Below the pieces are notes generated by a model, which did no database searches, had not been told where the DNA came from, and saw only the letters and a program-made list of their open reading frames with translations. Shown here one piece after another: positions 1-62,224 of a stretch of DNA of 64,000 nucleotides. Source of the DNA: Escherichia coli phage Shin27. The stretch lies in the sequence record LC788709.1. The stretch is one strand, 5' to 3'. The number at the start of each line of letters is the position of its first letter. The stretch's first letter is position 1. The position numbers and the translations under genes were made by a program.

Positions 1-189
1 TTTTTTTTTTTTTTTGAGAGGGTGCAAAACGAACCTCTTGCATTTTGCGTTTTCATATTGTACATAAGAACAGCCTAAGAATCAGCGAACTGTTAACATA
101 ACAGAACACGCGTTGCGTTGCTAGGATAATCAATGTTCAGGCTTGTTTCGCAGCAATATTTTTCAGTGACAGATTGCACTCCACTTATA

Positions 190-3100
190 CTACGGTAGTT
201 CTGTAATTGTTGGAGCATTTCCGTTAAGCATTGATTTTACAAGGTTTTTCAGTTCATATAACTCATTGCGTAATACGTTAATTTCCTCCTGTTGATTATC
301 AATCTTTGCTTTTTGCTCTTTGAATGCGTTAACAAGAAGTGCGACAACACCATTATAGTTAATGCCTTTGATTGCCTCGCCTTTTGGGTCTAGCTGACCA
401 TCGTTATTCAAAGAATGAACCGCTTCCGGCAAAACCCTTTCAACATCTTGTGCGATCAATCCAGCCTCAATACTATAAACGCTGTTTTCATCTTCAATTA
501 GATTGTTGCGCTTGTAGTAAGTATAACCAGTTAGATAATCAATTTTGTCGGATGCCGTTTCGATCTCTTTTAGATGTGCTTTTAATCTAATGTCAGACCT
601 GCTAACCCAATTTGATGCGCTACCATTTCCAGCACTATCAAAAATAAATTCAGCGCCCTTAACATAAAGATGTGTTTCAGCGCTGCCAGAAGTCCACGGA
701 ACAACATCCATGCCAGCTATCCAATCTTTCCCCCAATAAACAGATTTAAATATGGCAACCGCAGAATCAAATCCAGTGTGCTCAACAAGCAATCCAGACG
801 CACGACTACGCCAGTCGGCAAATGCACCACCCTCAACTTGACCAGCAATAAGAGCGTTTGGATCACCGCGCCTAACTCCATTTACATACATACCCCTTGC
901 GTAATCATCAGCATAAGATGATATGACCCTGTAAGTGTTTATTCCTGATGGAGTCCATGCAAATATTCTCGCTGAATCAGCAAACGCGCTTATGTGACCA
1001 TCACGATCCCATTTAAGACCTGAATCATGATCCCCAATTGCTATAGAGTAATCACCAAGAGCCGATTGAGCATCAGGACTTAATAACATCAATTGCTTAT
1101 CAGATCTTGCTATCCTGTACCATCCACCCCAAGAGCCATTATTGCAAATGATACCCCATTTATTGCCATTCATTGTGGTTGCAACAATATTTCCATACTC
1201 AACATGGCCGTTTGCATTTTTACGGTGAACATGCAATTCATACATCCACCAACCAGAGGCTTCAGGTGGTTGATATGTAACAAGTTCTCCGCTTGAGTAA
1301 TAACCGCTTTCTGCGTATGTTGACATAAACCCAAGAATGTTTGAAGTATCCGGGATGACAATTGCTTGACCACCAACAGGAGTGTTTAAGTTCTTTCTTG
1401 CTCCAACATCACTTGTTGCACCAGTGCCGCCCTGTTGAATTCCAAGAGGAACAAACTGTTGCGTTGCAGTATTCCAATAACCCCAGCCATCATTACCAAC
1501 CGTTAGGTATTTAATTGTATCTGGCGACTGAATAAATGTTTCACCATCACCCTGATTAAACCTGTTAACCTGAAAATTAATTCTCGCTTGAGCAACGTTT
1601 TCAGCACCAGTACCGCCAGCATCAATAGAAAGCGCAGATGTGCTGTTATTGTCATTACGCGTAACGCGCCATTCCCCATTGTTAGCGATCCGTAATTCAT
1701 AAGTCCATGCAGGATTACGAAAAGAATTATAAGCGCCAGCATATTGATCTTTTACAGAATTAACAGCCTCAACTTTTAGCGCCTCCCTTGCAAGGTCTTT
1801 GTTTGCAAGATCATTAAGGTTCTGATCCTTCTTTAACGACGCTTGCATAACCTGTTCTGCTGATGCAGCCGCTGTCTCCGCTCTATCTGCTGCACTGGTG
1901 GCATTAGTAGCTTTCTCTCCTGCTATTGTAGCGCTACCAGCGGCCTCCAGGGCCTTGTCTGTTGCTGTCGTTGCAGCAGTAGTGGCGGTATTTTTAAATA
2001 CCTCTGCTTCGTCTCTGTAGCCTTTGGTTGTGGTCATCGCTTGCGTAGCTGTATTCGCACTACCTGATGCACTTTGCTGAGCTAGCTTAGCAGCGTCTTC
2101 ACTAGCTTTTGAGTTAATTTCACTAGTCTTTGTATTAGTTTCTGAGTTTTTTGCTGCTAATGCTGATGTGGAGGCTTGTGCAGCGAATGCTTCTGCTTCA
2201 TCCCTGAATCCTTTGGAGTCAGAAGCAGAGGCAGCGGAATCAGCAGCATTAGTCTCACTAGTTTTTGCTGCTGCATATGCTGCTGCATTAGTCTCACTAG
2301 TTTTTGCATTAATCTCACTAGTTTTTGCATTAATCTCACTAGTTTTTGCTGCAGCTGATGATTCTTCACTAGTTTTTGCTGCTGCATATGCTGCTGCATT
2401 AGTCTCACTAGTTTTTGCATTAATCTCACTAGTTTTTGCATTAATCTCACTAGTTTTTGCTGCAGCTGATGATTCTATAGCAGTAGTTTCACTAATTTTT
2501 GCTGCAGCTGATGATTCTGCAGCTTTAGTAGCGGATGCAGCAGATTGAGAAGCAGAAATAGCAGACTGAGAAGCAGAAGCTTCAGAAGCTTCAGCAGAAA
2601 TAGCAGATTCATTCTCAGAATTCTTAGCATTAAGTTCTGAAGTCTTAGCAGCTATCTCGGAGTCTTTTGCAGTAGTAGCGTATTCTCCCGCCTCTGTAGC
2701 AGAACCAGCAGCAGCAATAGCCTGATTGGTAGATTCAGTAGCAGATGTAGCAGCATTTTGCTCAGAAGTAGCAGCAGCAGTCTTAGCAGCCTCAGCGTCC
2801 TTCTTAGCTTGTTCAGCTAATAGACGACTCTGTTCAGCATTTTGTGCAGCAAGTTCAGCAGAATCACGGAATCCTTTGGATTCCTCAGCTGACGTAGCAG
2901 AGGCATCAGCACTATCTTTAGATAAACCAGCTTGTCTCTCCGCTTCAGTAGCAGAAGCAGCAGATTGAGTTGCAGAAGTTTCTGAAGAGTTAGCGTAAAT
3001 TGCAGCTAGGTTCTCCGAGTCCTTAGCATTTGTTTCAGATTCTTTTGCTGCAATTTCAGAATCTTTTGCTGCCGCAGCAGAAGCAGCAGAGGCCTCAATA

Positions 3101-3240
3101 GCCCCTGTTAGTTCACTAGCAGTAATAGAACTAATAGAAGTACCTAAAACTACCGTATACTTAGGATATTTACTAGCAGTAGTTGTAGTGTCATCTATGT
3201 TCAGAATCTGCTGTACAATAATTTTAGTTTTAAGTGCCAT
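190..3240 (-). CDS. ltf: L-shaped side tail fibre protein (T5 pb1/LtfA-like) with C-terminal intramolecular chaperone/autoproteolysis domain
   Basis: 1016-aa ORF. The N-terminus (KYPKYTVVL) and the Ala/Ser/Glu-rich AKTSExN heptad shaft are typical of T5-family side fibres. The C-terminus (SDIRLK...GINYNGVVALLVNAFKEQ plus coiled coil) matches the endosialidase-type chaperone (S74) signature. Confidence 0.9.
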   Translation of the reverse strand: MALKTKIIVQQILNIDDTTTTASKYPKYTVVLGTSISSITASELTGAIEASAASAAAAKDSEIAAKESETNAKDSENLAAIYANSSETSATQSAASATEAERQAGLSKDSADASATSAEESKGFRDSAELAAQNAEQSRLLAEQAKKDAEAAKTAAATSEQNAATSATESTNQAIAAAGSATEAGEYATTAKDSEIAAKTSELNAKNSENESAISAEASEASASQSAISASQSAASATKAAESSAAAKISETTAIESSAAAKTSEINAKTSEINAKTSETNAAAYAAAKTSEESSAAAKTSEINAKTSEINAKTSETNAAAYAAAKTSETNAADSAASASDSKGFRDEAEAFAAQASTSALAAKNSETNTKTSEINSKASEDAAKLAQQSASGSANTATQAMTTTKGYRDEAEVFKNTATTAATTATDKALEAAGSATIAGEKATNATSAADRAETAAASAEQVMQASLKKDQNLNDLANKDLAREALKVEAVNSVKDQYAGAYNSFRNPAWTYELRIANNGEWRVTRNDNNSTSALSIDAGGTGAENVAQARINFQVNRFNQGDGETFIQSPDTIKYLTVGNDGWGYWNTATQQFVPLGIQQGGTGATSDVGARKNLNTPVGGQAIVIPDTSNILGFMSTYAESGYYSSGELVTYQPPEASGWWMYELHVHRKNANGHVEYGNIVATTMNGNKWGIICNNGSWGGWYRIARSDKQLMLLSPDAQSALGDYSIAIGDHDSGLKWDRDGHISAFADSARIFAWTPSGINTYRVISSYADDYARGMYVNGVRRGDPNALIAGQVEGGAFADWRSRASGLLVEHTGFDSAVAIFKSVYWGKDWIAGMDVVPWTSGSAETHLYVKGAEFIFDSAGNGSASNWVSRSDIRLKAHLKEIETASDKIDYLTGYTYYKRNNLIEDENSVYSIEAGLIAQDVERVLPEAVHSLNNDGQLDPKGEAIKGINYNGVVALLVNAFKEQKAKIDNQQEEINVLRNELYELKNLVKSMLNGNAPTITELP
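2256..2477. repeat. perfect 2 x 111-bp in-frame tandem duplication inside the side-fibre gene
   Basis: 2256-2366 and 2367-2477 are identical at 110/111 positions. Each unit contains nested 21-bp CTCACTAGTTTTTGCATTAAT-type units. Confidence 0.9.
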
Positions 3241-3662
3241 TATTGAGTTACTCCATCGCTGATGTATACTTTACCTTCCATAATACGGAAAGAATTGACT
3301 TCAGAGCCAATTACATCACGAGTCATTAGGATATCATAATAACCAGCAAAACGTTGTCTTGGGTTATACTTATCACGTTCTTTAGATGCTTTTTCACCAA
3401 TATTAGTAGTGTCTGCAATGGAAAGACTAATTGCAGCAGCACCTTGGGCAGCATCAATAATATGAGTTTTAAAATCAGCTAGAACCTCGGCGTTCTCATC
3501 TAAACTAGATTTAATAGTTCCTCGGAGTGAATATCCGGTTAAGTTAACAGGAACTTCTGTTGGTGGATATACACTGTCATCAACATCCATAAACTGCATG
3601 ATAAGACCATAAGGTACTTTCTCATCAACAACAATATCAATAACTCGGTTTTCTGTACTCAT
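3240..3662 (-). CDS. tail collar protein (T5 p132-like slot)
   Basis: 140-aa ORF between the side-fibre and central-fibre genes. Its stop abuts the start of the next gene. The name rests on recalled T5 gene order only. Confidence 0.55.
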
Positions 3663-3667
3663 TATAA

Positions 3668-5725
3668 TTACCTTATATGGATATACCCACTATTTAGGTC
3701 TATCTTCATCTTGTAGTATGCTTCAGGGTTCCCTGATAATGCAGCATTTCTATCGTAGATTATATTAACACCTATTTGTGATAAGAAGGCATTTCCTGCC
3801 ACAATCTTATCAGCAGTTACAGTTCCATTAACAATCATGTTGCCATGAAGAACCATTGCAGGGTTAATCCATCCAGCCCCGTTCCATTGACGGGTAAATG
3901 CTGTTTGTGGAGCATTACTGTTAAATTGTGTTAAGACATCGTATTTAACTGGAGGTTTTCCAAAGTTATTTTGGAAGAATGCATTAGCCTGTCCATCATC
4001 CCAACCACCTAATCCAGGAATACCCATGGAGTACATCCCAGGACCACGCTGTCCATCATGTCCTATAGTACCTTCAGTACCACTCCACTGAACCACATCA
4101 GACCAGCTAGTACCTTCGAGAAGTTTGTTAGTAACTGGATCAAGTGTACCCGTAGTAGCATAGATATTTTGTGTCATATCTGTACGATTAGGTGGAGTTT
4201 TTGACCAACCAGGAGGTGGATAATCTTGTTCTAGCGGTTTAGCTGGTAGAGATGTTGCTAACTTATAAACAAATACTGTTTGTTTACCCTGTAATCCAGT
4301 ACCAATATCTACGTCACCATTTGGTGTTCCAATTACTACACCACTAGAAATACGTAGGGTAGTACCATCATAACGTATCCATTGTGTAGCATTACCAATG
4401 TCTAATTTAGCTTTGGCAGAGGTATTATCCATGCCCATCCAAATACCAGAGTTATTATCTCCCCAAGATTTACCTTGAGTGTAAATTGCTGGATTATCTT
4501 TACCAGACAAGTTAGTCATAATAAAGTTTGCAGCATTAATATCTCTAGTGATTACTTTACCATCAACGTTAACAATACGGTTTATAGGGTCGAAAGAAAT
4601 AGGTGCTTTACCTTCTTCATCTAGCAGACCAATGTTAATAGCACCAGTAGCTGCATCAATTAGGAATGTTTGTCTCCAGATTTCCCCATCTTTCATGCTG
4701 CCTTTAATAAAGGCATAGTTAACATCAATACCCGTCTCATTGACAAAGCTGTTGTCTAGAGGAGTATCTTCATTCAGAATAAATGTTACAGGAACTGACT
4801 CTGTTATATCTTGTTTATTTGGTCCCCAGGCAATTGATGATACCTTAAAAGTATGTTCAACTTTCCATGGGAATGATATAATTGTTGCAGCTCTGGCAGC
4901 ACCCACGTTTATCTTTTGAGCTTTAGCCCATCCGGTTTTAGCATATTCCTCGGAGTTTATGTAAGTAACCAAAAACTCACGAACGTTAGCACCAGCACCA
5001 CGTTCCCAATCCCACTCAATTCTAACATCATATCGTTCTTTACCATCTGCAATTCGTGCAGCTTTAAAAACAATATCGATAGGTGCGGTAGGAGGAACAA
5101 AGTTATAAGCTACAGTTAGAATACTAGGGAATTCATAGTATCCAGAAGAATCAACTGTAACACCATCAGGCATAGTTACTTGACCAGATATTCTGATCTT
5201 ATAATCTCCGATAGGAACTCCACCAAATTTAATAGTAGAACCTAAAGCCCCAATGTAATATTTAGTCCATGGACTGTCTTCAGTGGCTGTACTTTTTAAC
5301 TCAATAGTACAGTAGCTTGCTTCACCAGTTGTTTCCACAACAACTATCGGTGAGCCCACCCCAACATCCACGGGTTCTGACTCAGATCTTGCTGCAACAA
5401 TTATTGGCTTCTCTTTTGTTTTAAAGTTAGTTTCATTAGAGAGGTTAATACCAATTTTTGCATTTAAAAGTTCTGAGTCAATAATTGAGTCATAAAAAGC
5501 TCCCTGAACCTGATAGGTAGTTGAGGGAGTTAAGTTATTGATCATAACAAAGAAAGTGTCGATTCCAGTGAAATCTCTTCTATCCACTTCTTCGCCAAGT
5601 TTAAGCCAAAATGATCTACCGATAACATCGTAGTCGGTATAGATAGAATGCTGGATATACGCCATAGTATATCCAGTCATAATACTATTTAAGACCATCT
5701 TGGCTGGTGCATTATTCGAAATCAT
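3668..5725 (-). CDS. central straight fibre protein (pb4-like)
   Basis: 685-aa beta-rich ORF directly downstream of the hub gene. Size and position match T5 pb4. Confidence 0.75.
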
Positions 5726-8575
5726 TTAAATAGATGCCCAATCCACAGATTGCTCGCCATTATCACCTTCTGCTCTTATACGGAAGCGTAACTTCCTATT
5801 AATACCTAGAGCATCCTCGTTATGAAGAGCATAGTCTGCCTTATTGTATATCAGTAGATAATCGTAGACATACTGATCTTCAATTCGTACACTTCTTAAT
5901 AAACGATCTAGGTTATCGTAGATTTCGAGAGTGTAGAAGATTCCATCAATAATATCTTCTTCTGGAATTCTATCCCAGGCCAACTTAACGTCTGGTCCTA
6001 CAAACTCCGATGCATCTCCTGAAGCTGTGTTAGTAACCCTGAAATTACTAACGACGCTTAAGTTTTTAGCAGAGTTAAGTTCTACCGATAGTGTTACAGG
6101 AGAACTTCGTCTACCATTAATATCTACAGCTCTAATCTCAAAGACTGCTAAACCAGCAGGTTCTCCAATAATTTCTTGGATCATTCGTAGATTTGGATTA
6201 GTTTCTAGTTGCTGTACTATATAAGGATCAGCATGCCCAGAGTGAACGATGGAGTAATAAACAACGTTATTAGTTAAGCTAGGAAGCCAAGATAGCTCAC
6301 CATTCTTACCAATAGATCCTACTTGTCCACCAGGTGTTGGTGTATACATAAAGTCTCTAGGAGGCAGTACGTTATTACTAACATCAGGAATATCATTACC
6401 ACTATTATCTACCTGTTCAGAGTTAATAAATACATCTTCTCCATACTCTTGTAGAGTAATATTAATCTTGCCTTCTCTTGAGTTCTCAACCTCATCTACT
6501 AGGAAGTATTTCTTATTCCACCCATAACGGTCATAAGTAAACGCTACTGGATCGTTGGGTTCAATACCAATGAAATGGTAAGGTAGAGAGAAAGATAGAG
6601 TTCGAGAGTAACGAGACTTTTTAAGTTCTCTATCAGCAAAACTACGTGCAGTGTAGTAGTTAGTAATGTTTGCAAAGGATAATTGCAGCTTTTTATCTAA
6701 TCCTTTATCCTGCTCTTTAAATATAGAGTTAAAGAATGTAATGGAGTTAGTTTTCCAGCTTAATGCGGGATCTAGTATAGAGGCTTGTACTGAGTTAAAC
6801 TTATTTCTACCAGTAGTATCTGATAGCTCCAGATCACCATAGGTATCTAAGAAGTCAATCTCTAATGGGGTGTTTGAGAACTTCTCAACAGTTATTCTAT
6901 ACTGTCCAGATAAGTTGTTGATAGCACCGCCATAAGACTCTATTAATCCCTGCACGTTTTTAAATACTGACTCAGAGGTATCGAGAATAGTATTCATTTG
7001 AACTATTTGTCTATTCTCTCCTACAGCATCAGTCCATCCAACGTATCTCCAGTAGGGCTGCCAAGAAACCTGATAGGATTCATCAATGATATCCAGGATA
7101 GCTGCTTCTTGAATAAGTTGCTGGAGAGGGAACTGATCAATAGTGATATTAGCACCGTAGCGGTCAGAGGTTAGGTAGTCCAGAGTTTGCCAGATACCAT
7201 TTAAGCTAGTCTTATCAGCAGTTACTCTACCATCTGAATGATAGATCTTAATCTTCTTACCTTGAACTTCAGCGCTAACTTCTGGAATTTCTGTTCTGTT
7301 TTCATTAATAGTAAAGCGAACAATAGCATAAGCAGTATCTAACAGTTTATAACGAGTGTCCCAGTATTCCGGTCCATTCTCATTCATGTTCTGTAGATAG
7401 AAACCTTTCTCTTTTGCAATGTTAACTAGAACATCAGCAGCAGATTGATCAGCCTTACCATGATAAGTCCAGATACGGATATCGCCATTACCATCATTAT
7501 ACTTATATTCCTGTCCATGAACAGAAGGTTCAGAGCTTGGTTGACCAGAAGCAATACGTTGCATGGTATCGCCAGCTACTTTCTTAGTACCAAAGCAAGT
7601 ACGAGACTTACTATCATTAGGATCAATACAGATCATTGGTACATCACCAAAGTAAAAATCTAGGAACCCATCAATCTCACCCTCACAGAAAGCGTATACT
7701 ACATATACGATATTAGGATTATGCAGTTCAGTATCTGCAAATACTGGGACTCCAGGAATTTTCTGAACTCCATATACTACTGGCAGGAATTTAGCAGCTA
7801 AGTTAAAATCAAGATCTACTTCCTTAGTTACAGTCTCATAGTATTTCTTTAGGCTATAGCTTCTAGAAAGACCAAATAACTTTTTCTTAGATTGTAACTT
7901 ATAACGTTCTTCCTGAACCTGATACTTAGCAAGAATAGAAATACTCTTGTTAGCATGAAAGAATCCGTAGTCCTCTTGATATTCAGGTCGTTTAGCACCA
8001 TTAGATGGAACTAATTGGCCAGCAACAATCTCAAGTCCCCTATGGTCAGCATCATCTGTGAAACGTCCGTTTACTCTATCAAAGTCATAGAATTGGTTTG
8101 AACAGTTCCATGTAATAACAGATGTACTAACTCCAGAAGTACCAATGTTATCCTTAATACCACCACCAGTGATTTTACCACGGAAGTAAAGTAAAGGACC
8201 ATTAGTATCTGGATCTACAGGAAGAATGTTACCTTCTTCATCAATAACCGCTTGATGGATTGAAATAGATCTATCTAGGAAGGATACACCATTTTGGACT
8301 AGTTTTAATACTTCATCCTCAGCAGTACCTGTGATAGTAAAAGAAAGGCTACCAATGGAAAGTTTTCTATTTTGTTTATGTGTTGTTATAGACTTAACTT
8401 TACCGGATGTGTAAAGAATACCATTATAAATTACATCCCTAAAATAGTCTGTAAGATAAATGTACGCAGAACTTGATCCGGTAGAGCTTGGCAATTCAAG
8501 AGTAATAAGGCATGCAGTTTTTATTTTATTATTGGTTCTTAGATACTCTCTTGCACTGTCAAGAATTTTCTTCAT
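5726..8575 (-). CDS. baseplate hub protein (pb3-like)
   Basis: 949-aa ORF between the pb9-like and pb4-like genes, with a 4-nt overlap with the upstream gene. Size and order are as in T5. Confidence 0.8.
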   Translation of the reverse strand: MKKILDSAREYLRTNNKIKTACLITLELPSSTGSSSAYIYLTDYFRDVIYNGILYTSGKVKSITTHKQNRKLSIGSLSFTITGTAEDEVLKLVQNGVSFLDRSISIHQAVIDEEGNILPVDPDTNGPLLYFRGKITGGGIKDNIGTSGVSTSVITWNCSNQFYDFDRVNGRFTDDADHRGLEIVAGQLVPSNGAKRPEYQEDYGFFHANKSISILAKYQVQEERYKLQSKKKLFGLSRSYSLKKYYETVTKEVDLDFNLAAKFLPVVYGVQKIPGVPVFADTELHNPNIVYVVYAFCEGEIDGFLDFYFGDVPMICIDPNDSKSRTCFGTKKVAGDTMQRIASGQPSSEPSVHGQEYKYNDGNGDIRIWTYHGKADQSAADVLVNIAKEKGFYLQNMNENGPEYWDTRYKLLDTAYAIVRFTINENRTEIPEVSAEVQGKKIKIYHSDGRVTADKTSLNGIWQTLDYLTSDRYGANITIDQFPLQQLIQEAAILDIIDESYQVSWQPYWRYVGWTDAVGENRQIVQMNTILDTSESVFKNVQGLIESYGGAINNLSGQYRITVEKFSNTPLEIDFLDTYGDLELSDTTGRNKFNSVQASILDPALSWKTNSITFFNSIFKEQDKGLDKKLQLSFANITNYYTARSFADRELKKSRYSRTLSFSLPYHFIGIEPNDPVAFTYDRYGWNKKYFLVDEVENSREGKINITLQEYGEDVFINSEQVDNSGNDIPDVSNNVLPPRDFMYTPTPGGQVGSIGKNGELSWLPSLTNNVVYYSIVHSGHADPYIVQQLETNPNLRMIQEIIGEPAGLAVFEIRAVDINGRRSSPVTLSVELNSAKNLSVVSNFRVTNTASGDASEFVGPDVKLAWDRIPEEDIIDGIFYTLEIYDNLDRLLRSVRIEDQYVYDYLLIYNKADYALHNEDALGINRKLRFRIRAEGDNGEQSVDWASI

Positions 8576-9186
8576 AGACTTTCCCTCAAGGAAAGTGAAA
8601 TACCAGTATATGTACCATTACTATTTAACGTAGAGCCAAAACTGTCTCCGTTCATTAATTTAGTTCTAAACAGAATACCATTAAATACCGGTTTCTCACT
8701 ACCCGTAGTAGTAATGAATAGATCAGGATAAACACTTATATTCCAAGTATTTCCTGCTGTGTTGATAGAAGTGATTTTGTACACTTTTGGATGGTTGGAC
8801 AATTTAAATAAATCGCCTGGTTTAGGCAGTCCACGAAGTGTACCTTTAGTGTCCATAATAACTATTGAACCTTTTTGTCCGGCAGGAATATTTACAGCAC
8901 TAGTATCACCACGAACTCGGAAAGCCTCATATTGTGGTAATAACACATCAATATAGCTACCTGTTCTTTTATAATCTAGAATGAATGAGTCTAATTTAGC
9001 AAATTCATCTGGGAATAATTCTGGATAAGAGATATTAATACCCCAATATTGAGCAGACACCTTAACCTCCCTAACTTTACCATTAGGTAATTCATCACGA
9101 ATCATAGGGTCATTGTCTACTAAGTTAACGCTTTCAAAACCTAACCCTGATAGCTCTGGGTTCGTGTATGGGTCTGGTAGTCTCAT
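8572..9186 (-). CDS. distal tail protein (pb9-like)
   Basis: 204-aa ORF immediately after the tape-measure gene and a promoter-like site. The position matches T5 pb9. Confidence 0.75.
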   Translation of the reverse strand: MRLPDPYTNPELSGLGFESVNLVDNDPMIRDELPNGKVREVKVSAQYWGINISYPELFPDEFAKLDSFILDYKRTGSYIDVLLPQYEAFRVRGDTSAVNIPAGQKGSIVIMDTKGTLRGLPKPGDLFKLSNHPKVYKITSINTAGNTWNISVYPDLFITTTGSEKPVFNGILFRTKLMNGDSFGSTLNSNGTYTGISLSLRESL

Positions 9187-9212
9187 AGTTAATTTCTCCT
9201 CTTAATAACAAT

Positions 9213-9241
9213 ATTATAATAGGATTGGAAAATTTTATCAA
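9213..9241 (-). promoter_or_regulatory. sigma70-type promoter upstream of the pb9-like gene
   Basis: Coding strand reads TTGATA, 17 nt, TATAAT. It follows the pb2 terminator. Confidence 0.55.
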
Positions 9242-58454: not shown

Positions 58455-58699
58455 AATTGAATACTATTAGGGGATGATCAGTCCTCCATTTGGCCGTCTA
58501 AGGTACCAAAGTTAGTCATTCTGCGCACAGGTTTTTCTCCTGATTCTTTATTGCGAATGCTCTCTAATAATACTCAATTGTGGCGGCTCTCCGAAACTCT
58601 TCTACTCTAGCCTTAGCAGCTTACTCCCGAACGCATGTCGGGAAAGTCTTACTAAGAACATCAAATAGCACCGTTACACTTTGAGCCATTAATGTATCA

Positions 58700-58830
58700 A
58701 GAAGCAGAAGGACTTGAACCTTCACGAGATAGACCATTTATCTCAGCCTCGTTTTCGGGTATCTTATGAGGAGTGGATGTTCCCCTTACGCCCTTTAGGA
58801 AGCCCCGTCTACCGATTCCGGCATACTTCA
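58700..58830 (-). ncRNA. oversized (~131 nt) tRNA-like element
   Basis: Canonical T-arm GAAGG-TTCAAGT-CCTTC is followed by TGCTTCT, which pairs 6/7 with TGAAGTA at the far end. A D-like CCG-GAATCGGTAGA-CGG is present. No CCA and no ORF. It lies 5 nt from tRNA-Ser. Confidence 0.3.
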
Positions 58831-58835
58831 AGATT

Positions 58836-59173: not shown

Positions 59174-59266
59174 TGGCGGAAGAAGAGAGATTCGAACTCT
59201 CAAGCCTGCTTTAACAAGTCAGCCACTTTCCAAGCGGTTTTCGTCACCTAATCGATTTGCTCTTCC
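59174..59266 (-). tRNA. tRNA-Ser (GGA), long variable arm
   Basis: 93 nt. Acceptor GGAAGAG/TTCTTCC, G73, loop TTGGAAA, T-arm GAGAG-TTCGAAT-CTCTC, CCA encoded. The D-region register is uncertain. Confidence 0.6.
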
Positions 59267-61623: not shown

Positions 61624-61745
61624 TTTACTTATTGCGTAGGCCACCTGGAGGGTTCAAGCCCCACGGCTGACAAAGAAGTTTGCGAGACTTCTCTTAAACG
61701 CCAGAATAGACCCGCCGATCTATCGGAACCTACTCAATAAGTAAA
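61624..61745. ncRNA. structured ORF-free element closed by a 17-bp helix
   Basis: TTTACTTATTGCGTAGG (61624-61640) pairs 16/17 with CCTACTCAATAAGTAAA (61729-61745). Inside are a 6-bp stem with a 7-nt loop (AGAAGT-TTGCGAG-ACTTCT) and a GGTTCAAGCC T-loop-like motif. Confidence 0.3.
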
Positions 61746-61943: not shown

Positions 61944-62065
61944 CAATCTAGGCAGGACTTGAACCTGCTATCACTTGTGCGGATTTACGAGAACCATTCT
62001 TTCACTCGAATCGAACGAGCTTCTACCCTCGGCAAGCTGGTGTCCCCTCTCCACCACGCTAGAAT
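61944..62065 (-). ncRNA. oversized (~122 nt) tRNA-like element
   Basis: Canonical T-arm GCAGG-TTCAAGT-CCTGC is followed by CTAGATT, which pairs 6/7 with ATTCTAG at the far end. Internal hairpins are TGGTG-N9-CACCA and CTCG-TTCGATT-CGAG. No CCA and no credible ORF. Confidence 0.3.
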
Positions 62066-62147
62066 GATAATTAGTGCCTGCTCCTTTGAATCAAGAAGTC
62101 CACCCCGGACTTTGGGTCTTTGCAGTACATCACGCTGCTCTGATGTT

Positions 62148-62224
62148 TGGTACACCCACTAGGACTTGAACCTAGAACCTACCGCTTAAGAGGCGGTAGC
62201 TCTAACCAATTGAGCTATGGATGT
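62148..62224 (-). tRNA. tRNA-Lys (CUU)
   Basis: Acceptor ACATCCA/TGGGTGT, arm ACCGC-CTCTTAA-GCGGT, T-arm CTAGG-TTCAAGT-CCTAG, CCA encoded. Confidence 0.8.

What the first reader, a model, noticed from the sequence alone, without database searches (positions are those of the whole stretch)
58700..58830. Oversized (120-130 nt) tRNA-like elements with canonical T-arm and acceptor pairing but no normal body
Seen: at 58700-58830 the minus strand ends with GAAGG-TTCAAGT-CCTTC plus TGCTTCT, and TGAAGTA at the other end pairs 6/7 with it. A D-like CCG-GAATCGGTAGA-CGG resembling type-II tRNAs is present. A second element at 61944-62065 ends with GCAGG-TTCAAGT-CCTGC plus CTAGATT pairing 6/7 with ATTCTAG. 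Both lack an encoded CCA, unlike all 22 regular tRNAs. They sit at normal tRNA spacing (5-10 nt) from neighbours, have no credible ORF, and are about 45-50 nt too long. Inference: these could be tRNA genes carrying an insertion or intron-like segment, tRNA-derived stable RNAs (comparable to the unexplained small RNAs of T-even tRNA clusters), or decoys for tRNA-binding enzymes.
Basis: seen in the sequence. Interest (0 to 1): 0.65.

Follow-up and report, generated by a model that had tools for sequence, protein, structure and literature searches.

The report
Known T5 tRNA-shaped RNAs, RNA1/RNA2
The two oversized tRNA-like elements are real and are the "RNA1" and "RNA2" genes already annotated, with unknown function, in phages T5 and BF23: RNAs with a tRNA outer shell in which a conserved folded module replaces the anticodon loop.

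Summary
The window is a T5-like phage (100% identical to Salmonella phage falkor over 601 bp). The element at 58699-58830 (-) is the ortholog of T5/BF23 misc_RNA "rna1". The element at 61944-62065 (-) is the ortholog of "rna2". GenBank notes both as "tRNA-like RNA with unknown functions", so the finding is a rediscovery.

New here: both folds are supported by covariation.
- RNA1: 95.7% of cells paired against 87.9% in shuffles.
- RNA2: 94-96% paired against 67-82% in shuffles.
- With partners slid by 1-3 columns, only 25-51% pair.

RNA1 has a class II, tRNA-Leu-like shell: Leu-type D arm, long variable arm and T arm. RNA2 has a class I-like shell. In both, the 5-bp "anticodon stem" closes a conserved 48-55 nt module instead of a 7-nt loop. 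In RNA2 that module contains a second T-arm-like hairpin.

Neither RNA encodes CCA, whereas all 22 tRNAs in the cluster do. Neither reaches the Rfam tRNA threshold.

The RNA2 family also occurs in Acinetobacter T4-like phages and in bacterial-looking tRNA arrays. No Rfam family matches it.

Best reading: stable tRNA mimics that cannot decode, excised like tRNAs, with the inserted module as the working part. The partner is unknown.

The parts
58699..58830 (-). RNA1, 132 nt: a tRNA-shaped RNA, ortholog of T5/BF23 rna1. The T5 annotation projected onto the window spans 58688-58832.
   Evidence: 82% identical to T5 rna1. Model R2 scores it at 153 bits.
58824..58830 (-). RNA1 acceptor 5' strand, UGAAGUA. 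It pairs with 58700-58706 (UGCUUCU). U1 and U72 are mismatched in 18 of 20 relatives.
   Evidence: helix 1: four pairs show changes on both sides. For example GAAGUA/UGCUUC in the window, GGAAUA/UGUUCC in T5 and GAUGCCG/CGGGGUU in Klebsiella phages.
58805..58821 (-). RNA1 D arm, CCG-GAAUCGGUAGA-CGG. It is of the tRNA-Leu (class II) type, with A14, G18, G19 and A21 present.
   Evidence: Nearly invariant in A2. The best non-family hits of model R2 are tRNA-Leu genes at 39-48 bits.
58746..58803 (-). RNA1 extended "anticodon arm". P3 is GCUUC/GAGGC, P3b is GGG/CCC and P3c is GGGGA/UCCUC. The arm is capped by the near-invariant 8-nt loop ACAUCCAC at 58773-58780 (one copy, T5 locus L018, reads ACAUCCGC).
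   Evidence: helices 3-5: 100%, 92.5% and 95% of cells paired, and 6 pairs show changes on both sides. RNAalifold gives the same helices.
58725..58745 (-). RNA1 long variable-arm hairpin, UGAGAUA-AAUGGUC-UAUCUCG. Its loop resembles a D loop.
   Evidence: helix 6: 100% paired. A-U changes to U-A in phages mar004NP2 and HdH2.
58707..58723 (-). RNA1 T arm, GAAGG-UUCAAGU-CCUUC.
61944..62065 (-). RNA2, 122 nt: a tRNA-shaped RNA, ortholog of BF23/T5 rna2.
   Evidence: 91% identical to BF23 rna2. Model R1 scores it at 135 bits.
62038..62065 (-). RNA2 acceptor 5' strand, AUUCUAG, which pairs with 61945-61951. It is followed by CG and a D-like hairpin, UGGUG-GAGAGGGGA-CACCA.
   Evidence: helices 1 and 2: 90-100% of cells paired. 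In the model-fitted alignment every pair shows changes on both sides.
61973..62037 (-). RNA2 "anticodon stem" P3, GCUUG (62033-62037) with CAAGU (61973-61977), and the 55-nt module it encloses. P5 is GGGU (62025-62028) with AUCC (61981-61984). P6 is GA (62022-62023) with UC (61989-61990).
   Evidence: P3: all 5 pairs covary and 97% of cells pair. RNAalifold finds P3 and P5. P6: alignment columns 71/110 read AU 12, UA 5, CG 2, GC 1, canonical in 20 of 21 sequences. G70-C111 holds in 20 of 21.
62004..62020 (-). RNA2 internal T-arm-like hairpin P4, GCUCG-UUCGAUU-CGAGU. It is followed by the conserved 13-nt purine-rich bulge GAAAGAAUGGUUC at 61991-62003.
   Evidence: helix 5: 97-99% paired, and 4 of 5 pairs show changes on both sides (for example CG 12 against GC 10). 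The bulge holds invariant A68, A69, G71, G72 and C75.
61952..61968 (-). RNA2 T arm, GCAGG-UUCAAGU-CCUGC. It is preceded by the 4-nt variable loop GAUA at 61969-61972.

Best explanation
Both elements are genes for stable RNAs that mimic tRNA but cannot decode. They are the RNA1 and RNA2 of T5-like phages.

Shown:
- Each has a conserved tRNA outer shell: a 7-bp acceptor stem, a D arm, and a T arm with a UUCRAGU-type loop.
- RNA1's shell is class II and closest to tRNA-Leu. RNA2's shell is class I-like with a 4-nt variable loop.
- The 5-bp helix at the anticodon-stem position does not close a 7-nt anticodon loop. It closes a conserved, covarying module.
- In RNA1 the module is two further helices capped by a near-invariant ACAUCCAC loop, next to an oversized variable-arm hairpin with an AAUGGUC loop.
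- In RNA2 the module is helices P5 and P6, a second T-arm-like hairpin, and a 13-nt bulge containing invariant AA.GG.

Inferred:
- The shell lets the host tRNA-maturation machinery cut the RNA out of the polycistronic tRNA-cluster transcript. RNase P would make the 5' end. Endonuclease and exonuclease trimming would make the 3' end. The shell also makes the RNA stable, as an engineered tRNA scaffold does.
- The RNAs are probably not aminoacylated. They encode no CCA, and the discriminator base is not conserved.
- The inserted module is the working part.
- In RNA2 the T-loop together with the GG-containing bulge probably folds into an elbow-like knob at the tip of a lengthened anticodon arm.
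- The most likely role is to bind, titrate or divert a conserved component that handles tRNA or the ribosome, either a host factor or a tRNA-directed defence or toxin. The RNA2 module travels alone between unrelated phages and into bacterial tRNA arrays, which points to a partner that is widely conserved.

The partner and the phenotype are not known.
For: Identity:
- GenBank annotates rna1 and rna2 in T5 and BF23 as "tRNA-like RNA with unknown functions".
- The order of neighbouring genes is kept. RNAI follows RNA1 at 58687-58581, and tRNA-Gly(GCC) and RNAIV follow RNA2.

Structure:
- RNA1 covariation: 95.7% of cells paired against 87.9% in shuffles (0 of 500 shuffles as high). 12 pairs show changes on both sides. 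Slid controls give 39-51%.
- RNA2 covariation: 94-96% paired against 67-82% in shuffles. 20-25 pairs show changes on both sides. Slid controls give 25-45%.
- RNAalifold finds the main helices independently.

tRNA shell:
- Rfam's tRNA model aligns the acceptor, D and T arms of RNA1 around a 62-nt insertion.
- Apart from RNA1 copies themselves, model R2 scores tRNA-Leu genes highest, at 39-48 bits.
- Ordinary tRNAs match model R1 end to end at 20-30 bits.

No decoding or charging signals:
- Neither has a 7-nt loop.
- Neither encodes CCA, against 22 of 22 tRNAs that do.

Functional constraint on the inserts:
- The loops are invariant or nearly so (one T5 copy reads ACAUCCGC) and the stems covary.
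- The RNA2 core is about 84% identical between Demerecviridae and Acinetobacter Straboviridae.
- RNA2 also occurs in metagenomic tRNA arrays.
- No protein gene is shared between those loci.

Prevalence: RNA1 is in 492 phage records and RNA2 in 424. Both are conserved as discrete units while their flanks vary.
Against: - No expression, end-mapping or binding data were available. The GenBank notes call RNAI, RNAIII and RNAIV "stable RNA" but call RNA1 and RNA2 only "tRNA-like", so their stability may never have been shown.
- Single-sequence folding energies are no better than shuffles (z = -0.86 and +0.24).
- The T5 tRNA region is a deletion hotspot that the phage can lose in the laboratory (PMC12483538), so any function is accessory.
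- The Acinetobacter phage copies of RNA2 lack a convincing acceptor stem and D arm. The tRNA shell is therefore not obligatory for the module.
- The decoy or binding role is pure inference.
Confidence: 0.6

Rival explanations
1. They are true tRNA genes interrupted by a small intron. Splicing would yield a decoding tRNA.
For: The extra sequence sits exactly in the anticodon-loop position. ARAGORN in intron mode calls RNA1 a tRNA-Phe(AAA) with a 41-nt intron.
Against: - The loop left after notional excision is not conserved. It reads CUAAAAC in the window but is non-canonical in T5-type and L011-type copies. For RNA2 it would be CCGAGCA, which lacks U33 and a purine at position 37.
- The inserts are far too small for group I introns.
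- The junction between P3 and P5 is a 4-nt/3-nt internal loop, not a bulge-helix-bulge; from background knowledge, not tested here, bacteria also lack the enzyme that cuts that motif.
- The inserts are more conserved than the acceptor stems.
- CCA is absent, unlike in every real tRNA of the cluster.
- From background knowledge rather than a check here, T5's tRNA set is not known to lack an isoacceptor that these RNAs would supply.
Confidence: 0.05
2. They are only processing punctuation: tRNA-like cleavage signals for RNase P that separate neighbouring RNAs, with no function of their own after cleavage.
For: They lie 5-9 nt from tRNAs inside dense polycistronic clusters. The tRNA shell is conserved.
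Against: A cleavage signal needs only the acceptor stem and T arm. Here the inserted modules have invariant loops, covarying helices and conservation across phage families. The Acinetobacter copies keep the module while losing the acceptor and D shell.
Confidence: 0.1
3. RNA2 is a miniature tmRNA or a tmRNA mimic. It would have a tRNA-like domain, a short P2 helix and a pseudoknot-1-like element, and would act in or against ribosome rescue (for example as an SmpB decoy).
For: - E. coli ssrA reads GCAUGCCGAGGGGCGG..CCUCGUAAAAAGCCGCAAAA. RNA2 reads GCUUGCCGAGGGUAG..UCUCGUAAAUCCGCACAA in the same architectural position.
- The local alignment is beaten by only 5 of 1000 shuffles for the window copy.
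- ARAGORN at lowered stringency makes a permuted-tmRNA call over the region.
Against: - Rfam's tmRNA model gives no hit, even at E<=10 on a 141-nt search.
- ARAGORN at default settings finds no tmRNA.
- There is no G3-U70 pair and no CCA.
- No reading frame is conserved, because insertions and deletions between family members are not multiples of 3.
- The similarity is not significant for the Klebsiella, phage 133 or L005 copies.
- The CGAG/CUCG pairing is lost in divergent members, which read CAUG, CGCA or CACA.
Confidence: 0.05
4. They are decaying pseudo-tRNAs, or they are maintained for a DNA-level reason such as homing-endonuclease sites or recombination repeats, with no RNA function.
For: The tRNA region is rich in HNH and GIY-YIG endonuclease genes and is prone to deletion (PMC12483538).
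Against: Compensatory changes in every helix show selection on RNA pairing. The elements are present in more than 400 phage records as intact units. RNA2 is conserved across phage families and in bacterial arrays.
Confidence: 0.03
5. They encode small proteins.
For: ORFs of 44 aa (TTG start, 58697-58831) and 56 aa (GTG start, 61985-62155) cross the elements. Some GenBank records annotate "hypothetical protein" over them.
Against: - The ORFs have non-ATG starts.
- One of them begins inside tRNA-Lys.
- Insertions and deletions between relatives are not multiples of three.
- The substitution pattern is compensatory pairing rather than third-codon-position change.
- The Ksenzenko-laboratory records annotate the elements as RNA.
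Confidence: 0.01

Closest known systems
T5 and BF23 "RNA1" and "RNA2" (misc_RNA rna1 and rna2 in AY692264, AY543070/NC_005859 and NC_042564; note "tRNA-like RNA with unknown functions")
   Same: These are the same genes. They are 82% (RNA1) and 91% (RNA2) identical, have the same neighbours and orientation, and score 135-153 bits against the family covariance models.
   Different: Nothing essential differs. The window copies differ by compensated substitutions in the acceptor stem, P3 and P3c. The GenBank coordinates for RNA1 include 2 nt upstream and 11 nt downstream of the fold. RNAIII of T5 has no BLAST homolog in the window: 58455-58579, where RNAIII lies in T5, folds as one long hairpin.
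T4 species 1 and 2 RNAs (rnaC, rnaD)
   Same: They are small RNAs of unknown role encoded at the end of a phage tRNA cluster (PMC3014915). rnaC is 139 nt and has a T arm, paired ends, a long hairpin before the T arm and no encoded CCA.
   Different: There is no detectable homology. Model R1 gives rnaC 15.5 bits, E=0.26, and model R2 finds nothing. The Acinetobacter T4-like phages carry an RNA2-type element rather than one resembling T4 rnaC.
Canonical tRNA (Rfam RF00005), especially class II tRNA-Leu
   Same: The acceptor stem, D arm (RNA1: GCCGGAAUCGGUAGACGG), T arm, U8/A14/G18G19/A58-type core and long variable arm are shared. Apart from RNA1 copies themselves, the RNA1 model scores tRNA-Leu genes highest.
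   Different: The elements have no anticodon loop and no encoded CCA. They score below the Rfam gathering threshold (22.6 and 12.5 bits against 29) and are not called by ARAGORN at default settings. RNA2 has C8 and a 5-bp D stem.
tmRNA (RF00023)
   Same: Both have a tRNA-like acceptor and T-arm domain whose anticodon side is replaced by other structure. There is a short collinear sequence resemblance to pseudoknot 1.
   Different: There is no Ala identity pair, no CCA, no tag reading frame and no model hit. The resemblance is not conserved across the family.
Engineered tRNA scaffolds and natural tRNA-linked RNAs (gammaherpesvirus 68 tRNA-miRNA RNAs, mascRNA, Bacillus cereus pseudo-tRNA "tRNA-Other", bacterial YrlA). 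Named from general knowledge.
   Same: The principle is the same: a tRNA-like fold used for processing and stability while carrying or replacing the decoding end with another function.
   Different: None is homologous. Rfam Y RNA, YrlA and mascRNA models give no hit. In YrlA the RNA's two ends form the Ro-binding stem, whereas here they form the acceptor stem.

Membership tests
T5/BF23 RNA1 and RNA2 | Sequence homology to the annotated rna1 and rna2 features | tested here: met
   BLAST gives 81-82% identity over 144 nt for RNA1 and 91% over 125 nt for RNA2. The covariance models score 153 and 135 bits.
T5/BF23 RNA1 and RNA2 | Same place in the tRNA cluster: RNA1 followed by RNAI and then tRNA-His; RNA2 followed by tRNA-Gly(GCC) and then RNAIV | tested here: met
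   The RNAI homolog lies at 58687-58581 and the RNAIV homolog at 61733-61633. tRNA positions come. RNAIII is not conserved.
T5/BF23 RNA1 and RNA2 | Expressed as a discrete RNA during infection | not testable with these tools
   Only GenBank notes are available. No paper in the library describes these RNAs.
Canonical tRNA (RF00005) | 7-bp acceptor stem and a T arm with a UUCRANY loop | tested here: met
.
Canonical tRNA (RF00005) | 5-bp anticodon stem closing a 7-nt loop with U33 | tested here: not met
   The stem is present (P3), but it encloses 48 nt in RNA1 and 55 nt in RNA2.
Canonical tRNA (RF00005) | Score at or above the Rfam gathering threshold, or detection by ARAGORN | tested here: not met
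   The scores are 22.6 and 12.5 bits against a threshold of 29. Neither is in ARAGORN's default output.
Canonical tRNA (RF00005) | Encoded 3' CCA, the rule for tRNAs in this phage's cluster | tested here: not met
   22 of 22 tRNAs encode CCA and neither element does. Only one Klebsiella phage copy of RNA2 has UCCA.
Intron-containing tRNA | A conserved canonical anticodon loop after removal of the insert | tested here: not met
   The ARAGORN intron call exists for the window copy of RNA1 only. The residual loops differ between relatives and lack U33 and a purine at position 37.
Intron-containing tRNA | A recognisable intron class: a group I core, or a bulge-helix-bulge motif | tested here: not met
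   The inserts are 41-55 nt. No Rfam intron family hits them. The junction between P3 and P5 is a 4-nt/3-nt internal loop, not a bulge-helix-bulge.
tmRNA (RF00023) | Hit by the family model, or an ARAGORN tmRNA call | tested here: not met
   There is no hit at E<=10 and no default ARAGORN call. The positive control, E. coli ssrA, scores 295.8 bits.
tmRNA (RF00023) | G3-U70 alanine identity pair, a CCA end, and a conserved tag reading frame ending in a stop codon | tested here: not met
   The acceptor stem is AUUCUAG/CUAGAUU, with no G3-U70 and no CCA. Insertions and deletions between relatives break any reading frame.
tmRNA (RF00023) | Pseudoknot 1 just after the P2 helix | tested here: inconclusive
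   The sequence resemblance is beaten by 5 of 1000 shuffles for the window copy and is not significant for three other members. The S1-type pairing is not conserved.
T4 rnaC and rnaD | Homology to the T4 species 1 and 2 RNAs | tested here: not met
   Model R1 gives 15.5 bits, E=0.26, on rnaC. Model R2 gives nothing.
Y RNA / YrlA | Family model hit, and a Ro-binding stem formed by the RNA's two ends | tested here: not met
   There is no Rfam hit. The ends form a tRNA acceptor stem.

The most novel reading that the evidence does not exclude
RNA2 may represent an undescribed, widespread family of RNAs that travel with tRNA gene arrays. The family is found in Demerecviridae, in Acinetobacter T4-like phages, in other large uncultivated phages, and in what look like bacterial tRNA arrays.

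Its defining part would be a module placed where the anticodon should be: a T-loop hairpin plus a GG-containing purine bulge. That module could form a second tRNA "elbow" or a T-loop docking platform. If so, it would act by engaging elbow-recognising machinery (RNase P, the ribosomal L1 stalk, tRNA-modifying enzymes or tRNA-targeting toxins) or another tRNA.

RNA1 and other insert-bearing tRNA shells seen here (L005 8968-9094 and about 9105-9229; L106 7077-7210) would be further examples of a general phage strategy: natural tRNA scaffolds.
Probability: 0.3. Interest if true: 0.7.

Novelty: already known. Interest (0 to 1): 0.4.

Why it matters
The elements themselves are not new. They are annotated in T5 and BF23. 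Their function has stayed unknown for decades, as has that of T4 rnaC and rnaD, and current annotation pipelines miss them: most of the more than 400 T5-like records show nothing there, or a spurious "hypothetical protein".

This work adds three things that make the question testable:
- Secondary structures backed by covariation, showing a tRNA shell with the anticodon loop replaced by a structured module.
- Evidence that RNA1's shell derives from tRNA-Leu.
- Evidence that the RNA2 module moves between unrelated phage families and also occurs in bacterial-looking tRNA arrays, without any accompanying protein gene in the loci examined and without an Rfam family.

Phage tRNA clusters are now seen as counter-measures to tRNA-targeting defences. 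A conserved tRNA mimic that cannot decode and sits inside those clusters is an obvious candidate for a decoy or regulator.

Tried and rejected
1. tmRNA pseudoknot-1 mimicry. This was an attractive lead. I set it aside because there is no model hit, the similarity is not significant in other family members, and the pairing is not conserved.
2. A tag peptide or small ORF through the RNA2 T-hairpin (ARAGORN's low-stringency call "ARSIRVKEWFS*"). Rejected because insertions and deletions between relatives break the frame.
3. An archaeal-type bulge-helix-bulge or group I intron. Rejected on size and junction geometry.
4. The long-range helix GUG.GUGGA/UCCGCAC from the single-sequence minimum-energy fold of RNA2. 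Rejected because T5-type copies break it, while the D-like hairpin covaries.
5. An alternative RNA2 helix AGAA/UUCU in the register G70-C109. Replaced by the register G70-C111 with N71-N110, which covaries.
6. Host origin. Neither RNA has a BLAST match in 5,426 complete E. coli genomes.
7. A scan of bacterial genomes with AATGGTTCNCGTAARTCC gave 46 hits, none with RNA2 context.
8. Targets for the RNA1 loop. Its complement GTGGATGT occurs 4 times elsewhere in the window against 1.24 expected. That is too short and too weak to interpret. The complement of the variable-arm loop is not enriched.
9. A co-transferred protein partner. No ORF is shared between the Acinetobacter or UViG loci and the window. 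The RF-1-domain gene next to the ZZ1 element is not consistently adjacent in other phages and is absent from the window.
10. Own promoter or terminator. The consensus scan found nothing specific upstream of either RNA.
11. Literature. No paper in the library describes a function for T5 RNA1 or RNA2.
Full report
**What the window is.** A 601-bp stretch around the first element is 100% identical to Salmonella phage falkor and E. coli phage Wa28, and it matches 551 T5-like phage records. The minus strand from 56.8 to 63.3 kb holds a tRNA cluster. ARAGORN and Rfam find 21 tRNAs there. A 22nd tRNA, Ser-GGA-like at 59266-59178, scores below threshold.

**Checking the observation.**
- Element 1 reads UGAAGUA-UG-CCG-GAAUCGGUAGA-CGG...GAAGG-UUCAAGU-CCUUC-UGCUUCU.
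- Element 2 reads AUUCUAG...GCAGG-UUCAAGU-CCUGC-CUAGAUU.
- Neither is followed by CCA, while all 22 tRNAs are.
- RNA1 starts 5 nt after tRNA-Ser. RNA2 ends 9 nt before tRNA-Gly(GCC).
- Only short ORFs with non-ATG starts cross the elements.

**Identity.** BLAST against phage records finds element 1 in 492 records and element 2 in 424. Almost all matches cover the full length. Most records annotate nothing there, or a hypothetical protein. The neighbouring genes are in the same order: an RNAI homolog follows RNA1 (58687-58581, 91% identical), and tRNA-Gly(GCC) and an RNAIV homolog (61733-61633, 94% identical) follow RNA2. The finding is therefore a rediscovery of known genes of unknown function. 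A review says the same of T4's RNAC and RNAD: "their biological roles are unknown" (PMC3014915). No paper in the library gives a function for the T5 RNAs.

**Structure of RNA1.** I aligned twenty distinct copies from Tequintavirus, Epseptimavirus and Klebsiella Sugarlandvirus phages and tested an explicit structure.
- 95.7% of cells pair, against 87.9% in column shuffles (0 of 500 shuffles as high).
- 12 pairs show changes on both sides, against 6.8 expected.
- Sliding the partners by 1-3 columns gives 39-51% pairing.

RNAalifold recovers the same helices except for the register of the D stem. The parts are:
- an acceptor stem, with U1 and U72 mismatched in 18 of 20 copies;
- an invariant tRNA-Leu-type D arm;
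- a 5-bp helix P3 at the anticodon-stem position (GCUUC/GAGGC in the window, ACUGC/GCGGU in T5);
- two further helices, P3b and P3c, with P3c capped by a near-invariant ACAUCCAC loop (one T5 copy reads ACAUCCGC);
- a 7-bp variable-arm hairpin with an AAUGGUC loop;
- a T arm.

Rfam's tRNA model aligns acceptor, D and T arms end to end around a 62-nt insertion. The score is 22.6 bits, below the 29-bit threshold. A covariance model of RNA1 (R2) scores family members at 135-160 bits. Its next-best hits are tRNA-Leu genes at 39-48 bits, ahead of tRNA-Ser and the rest. So RNA1 is a tRNA-Leu-derived shell whose anticodon loop has been replaced. I found it only in Markadamsvirinae and Sugarlandvirus phages.

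**Structure of RNA2.** An alignment of twenty copies with an explicit structure gives the following:
- 94.7% of cells paired, against 81.7% in shuffles;
- 20 pairs with changes on both sides, against 9.4 expected;
- slid controls of 28-45%.

RNAalifold independently finds the acceptor stem, D stem, P3, P5 and T arm. After adding more distant members and fitting them to the model, pairing is 94-96% against 67-77%, and the covariation score is 0.53-0.69 against 0.18-0.20. Model-fitted alignments lean towards the model. The slid controls (25-45%) and the unfitted result agree with them.

The fold has these parts:
- a 7-bp acceptor stem;
- a D-like hairpin of 5 bp with a GGGG-containing loop;
- P3, which is GCUUG/CAAGU in the window and GCCAU/GUGGU, GCCUC/GAGGU, CCCAU/AUGGG, ACUCC/GGAGU or CCGCA/UGCGG in others;
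- a 4-nt variable loop;
- a T arm.

P3 encloses a 55-nt module containing:
- P5, GGGY/RUCC;
- a two-pair helix P6, found by scanning all column pairs: G70-C111 holds in 20 of 21 sequences, and N71-N110 reads AU 12, UA 5, CG 2, GC 1;
- an internal hairpin P4 whose loop, UUCGAUU, is a canonical T loop and whose stem covaries (CG 12 against GC 10 at one pair);
- a 13-nt bulge, GAAAGAAUGGUUC, with invariant AA.GG.

The T loop together with a GG-bearing strand is what builds the tRNA elbow. I therefore infer an elbow-like knob at the tip of a lengthened anticodon arm. This is inference, not a result.

**Distribution of RNA2.**
- The core (T hairpin, bulge and CGUAAAUCC) is about 84% identical in Acinetobacter T4-like phages 133, Acj9, ZZ1 and AB1I1M-1. 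It always lies in their tRNA clusters.
- It is also in Serratia, Pectobacterium and Klebsiella members of the Demerecviridae and in a 164-kb uncultivated phage genome.
- A metagenome scan with a 25-nt degenerate pattern returned 14 loci. All scored 67-147 bits with the model.
- One of those loci lies in a 1.46-Mb contig, inside an array of 47 tRNAs within 8.3 kb.
- Another pair lies in 60%-GC DNA, after tRNA-Val and tRNA-Ala and next to a methyl-accepting chemotaxis gene (Pfam E=2e-38). One of that pair is on a 247-kb contig.
- These contexts look bacterial, so the family is probably not confined to phages.
- The Acinetobacter copies keep P3, the module and the T arm, but have no convincing acceptor stem or D arm.
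- No protein gene is shared between these loci and the window.
- Neither RNA has any match in 5,426 E. coli genomes.
- No Rfam family matches RNA2, even at E<=10.

**How it most likely works.** What is shown: these are RNA genes under selection for a tRNA-like shell plus a structured module, and they lack an anticodon loop and an encoded CCA. What is inferred:
- The shell recruits RNase P and the 3'-trimming enzymes, so the RNA is cut out of the cluster transcript and is stable, as with engineered tRNA scaffolds.
- The RNA does not decode and is probably not charged. The discriminator base varies: U or A in RNA1; G, A or U in RNA2.
- The module is the functional end. It probably binds a widely conserved partner that handles tRNA or belongs to the ribosome, or a tRNA-directed toxin.

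The T5 tRNA region is dispensable in the laboratory and is a deletion hotspot (PMC12483538). That fits an accessory role that depends on the host or on host defences. I give about 0.6 to the tRNA-mimic and scaffold picture as a whole, and much less to any particular partner.

**Rival explanations.**
- Spliced intron-containing tRNA: unlikely. No canonical loop is conserved, there is no known splicing route, and the inserts are themselves conserved.
- A bare processing signal: does not explain the module.
- tmRNA mimicry: a real but weak resemblance to pseudoknot 1. It is not conserved and no model supports it.
- Pseudogene or DNA-level element: contradicted by compensatory changes in every helix.
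- Protein-coding: contradicted by frame-breaking insertions and deletions.

**Verdict.** The object is already known as T5/BF23 RNA1 and RNA2. What remains interesting is the unsolved function, the structures now defined, and the unexpectedly wide spread of the RNA2 module.

Noticed in passing
window 58581-58687 (-): This is the homolog of T5 "RNAI" (91% identical), annotated as a stable RNA of unknown function, directly after RNA1. Its ends pair (GGCUC...GAGCC), and it ends in an encoded GCCA like a tRNA acceptor end. It has no canonical T loop.
   Followed up: partly
window 58455-58579 (-): T5 has RNAIII here, but the window has no BLAST homolog of it. Instead there is a 125-nt sequence whose ends form a long, almost perfect hairpin (AAUUGAGUAUUAUUAG...CUAAUAGUAUUCAAUU, -29.4 kcal/mol), lying directly before tRNA-His.
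   Followed up: partly
window 61633-61733 (-): This is the homolog of BF23 "RNAIV" (94% identical), another stable RNA of unknown function. It lies between tRNA-Gly(GCC) and the promoter-like site at 61606-61578.
   Followed up: no
window 59178-59266 (-): A 22nd tRNA that ARAGORN missed. It reads GGAAGAG...GAGAGUUCGAAUCUCUC-UUCUUCC-GCCA, is class II, and has an apparent GGA (Ser) anticodon and a degenerate D arm. Rfam matches it only as tRNA-Sec at 23.8 bits.
   Followed up: partly
L005 (IMGVR_UViG_3300035181_002522) 3709-3828, 8968-9094 and about 9105-9229: This 10-kb locus of a 164-kb uncultivated phage has no ARAGORN tRNA. It has three oversized tRNA-shaped elements. One belongs to the RNA2 family. 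Two others carry different inserts with related motifs (CGCUCGUAAAUCG; GAAAAUGGUUAUCGUCAUUUGG). One of them has an encoded CCA.
   Followed up: partly
L106 7077-7210: This is another tRNA-Leu-like shell (D arm GGCGAAAGUGGUAGACGC, T arm GCAGGUUCGACUCCUGC, P3 AGCGA/UCGCU). It encloses an unrelated insert of about 62 nt that starts CGAGGGCGG. It lies in a metagenomic tRNA cluster that also holds an RNA2-family member and a CUA-anticodon (suppressor-like) tRNA.
   Followed up: no
L105 (Ga0308158_10000004, a 1.46-Mb contig) 1-8283: An array of 47 tRNA genes in 8.3 kb, with an RNA2-family element at 6023-6138 directly after tRNA-Gly(GCC). L111 and L118 carry the element in 60%-GC DNA next to a chemotaxis receptor gene. 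RNA2-type RNAs therefore seem to occur in bacterial tRNA arrays.
   Followed up: partly
L101 (Acinetobacter phage ZZ1) 1327-1557: A 76-aa protein with a release-factor RF-1 domain (Pfam PF00472, E=3e-10) is encoded right after the RNA2-like element. The catalytic GGQ motif appears to be replaced (VGKHSNWVN). Homologs lie 2.7-5 kb away in Acj9 and phage 133. There is none in the window.
   Followed up: partly
window 58725-58745 and 61991-62003 (-): RNA1's variable-arm loop (AAAUGGUCU) and RNA2's bulge (GAAUGGUUCU; AAAUGGUCU in Klebsiella phage copies) share an AAUGGU(U)CU motif that resembles a tRNA D loop. It could be a common recognition element.
   Followed up: no
window 1242, 5364, 36008, 50335: The 8-mer complementary to RNA1's invariant loop (GTGGATGT) occurs 4 times outside RNA1, against 1.24 expected from shuffles. 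I did not check strand or gene context.
   Followed up: no
window 58707-58723 (-): The RNA1 T arm followed by its U-rich acceptor strand (UGCUUCUUGA) matches the intrinsic-terminator pattern of the consensus scan. This may be a coincidence of tRNA-like sequence.
   Followed up: no
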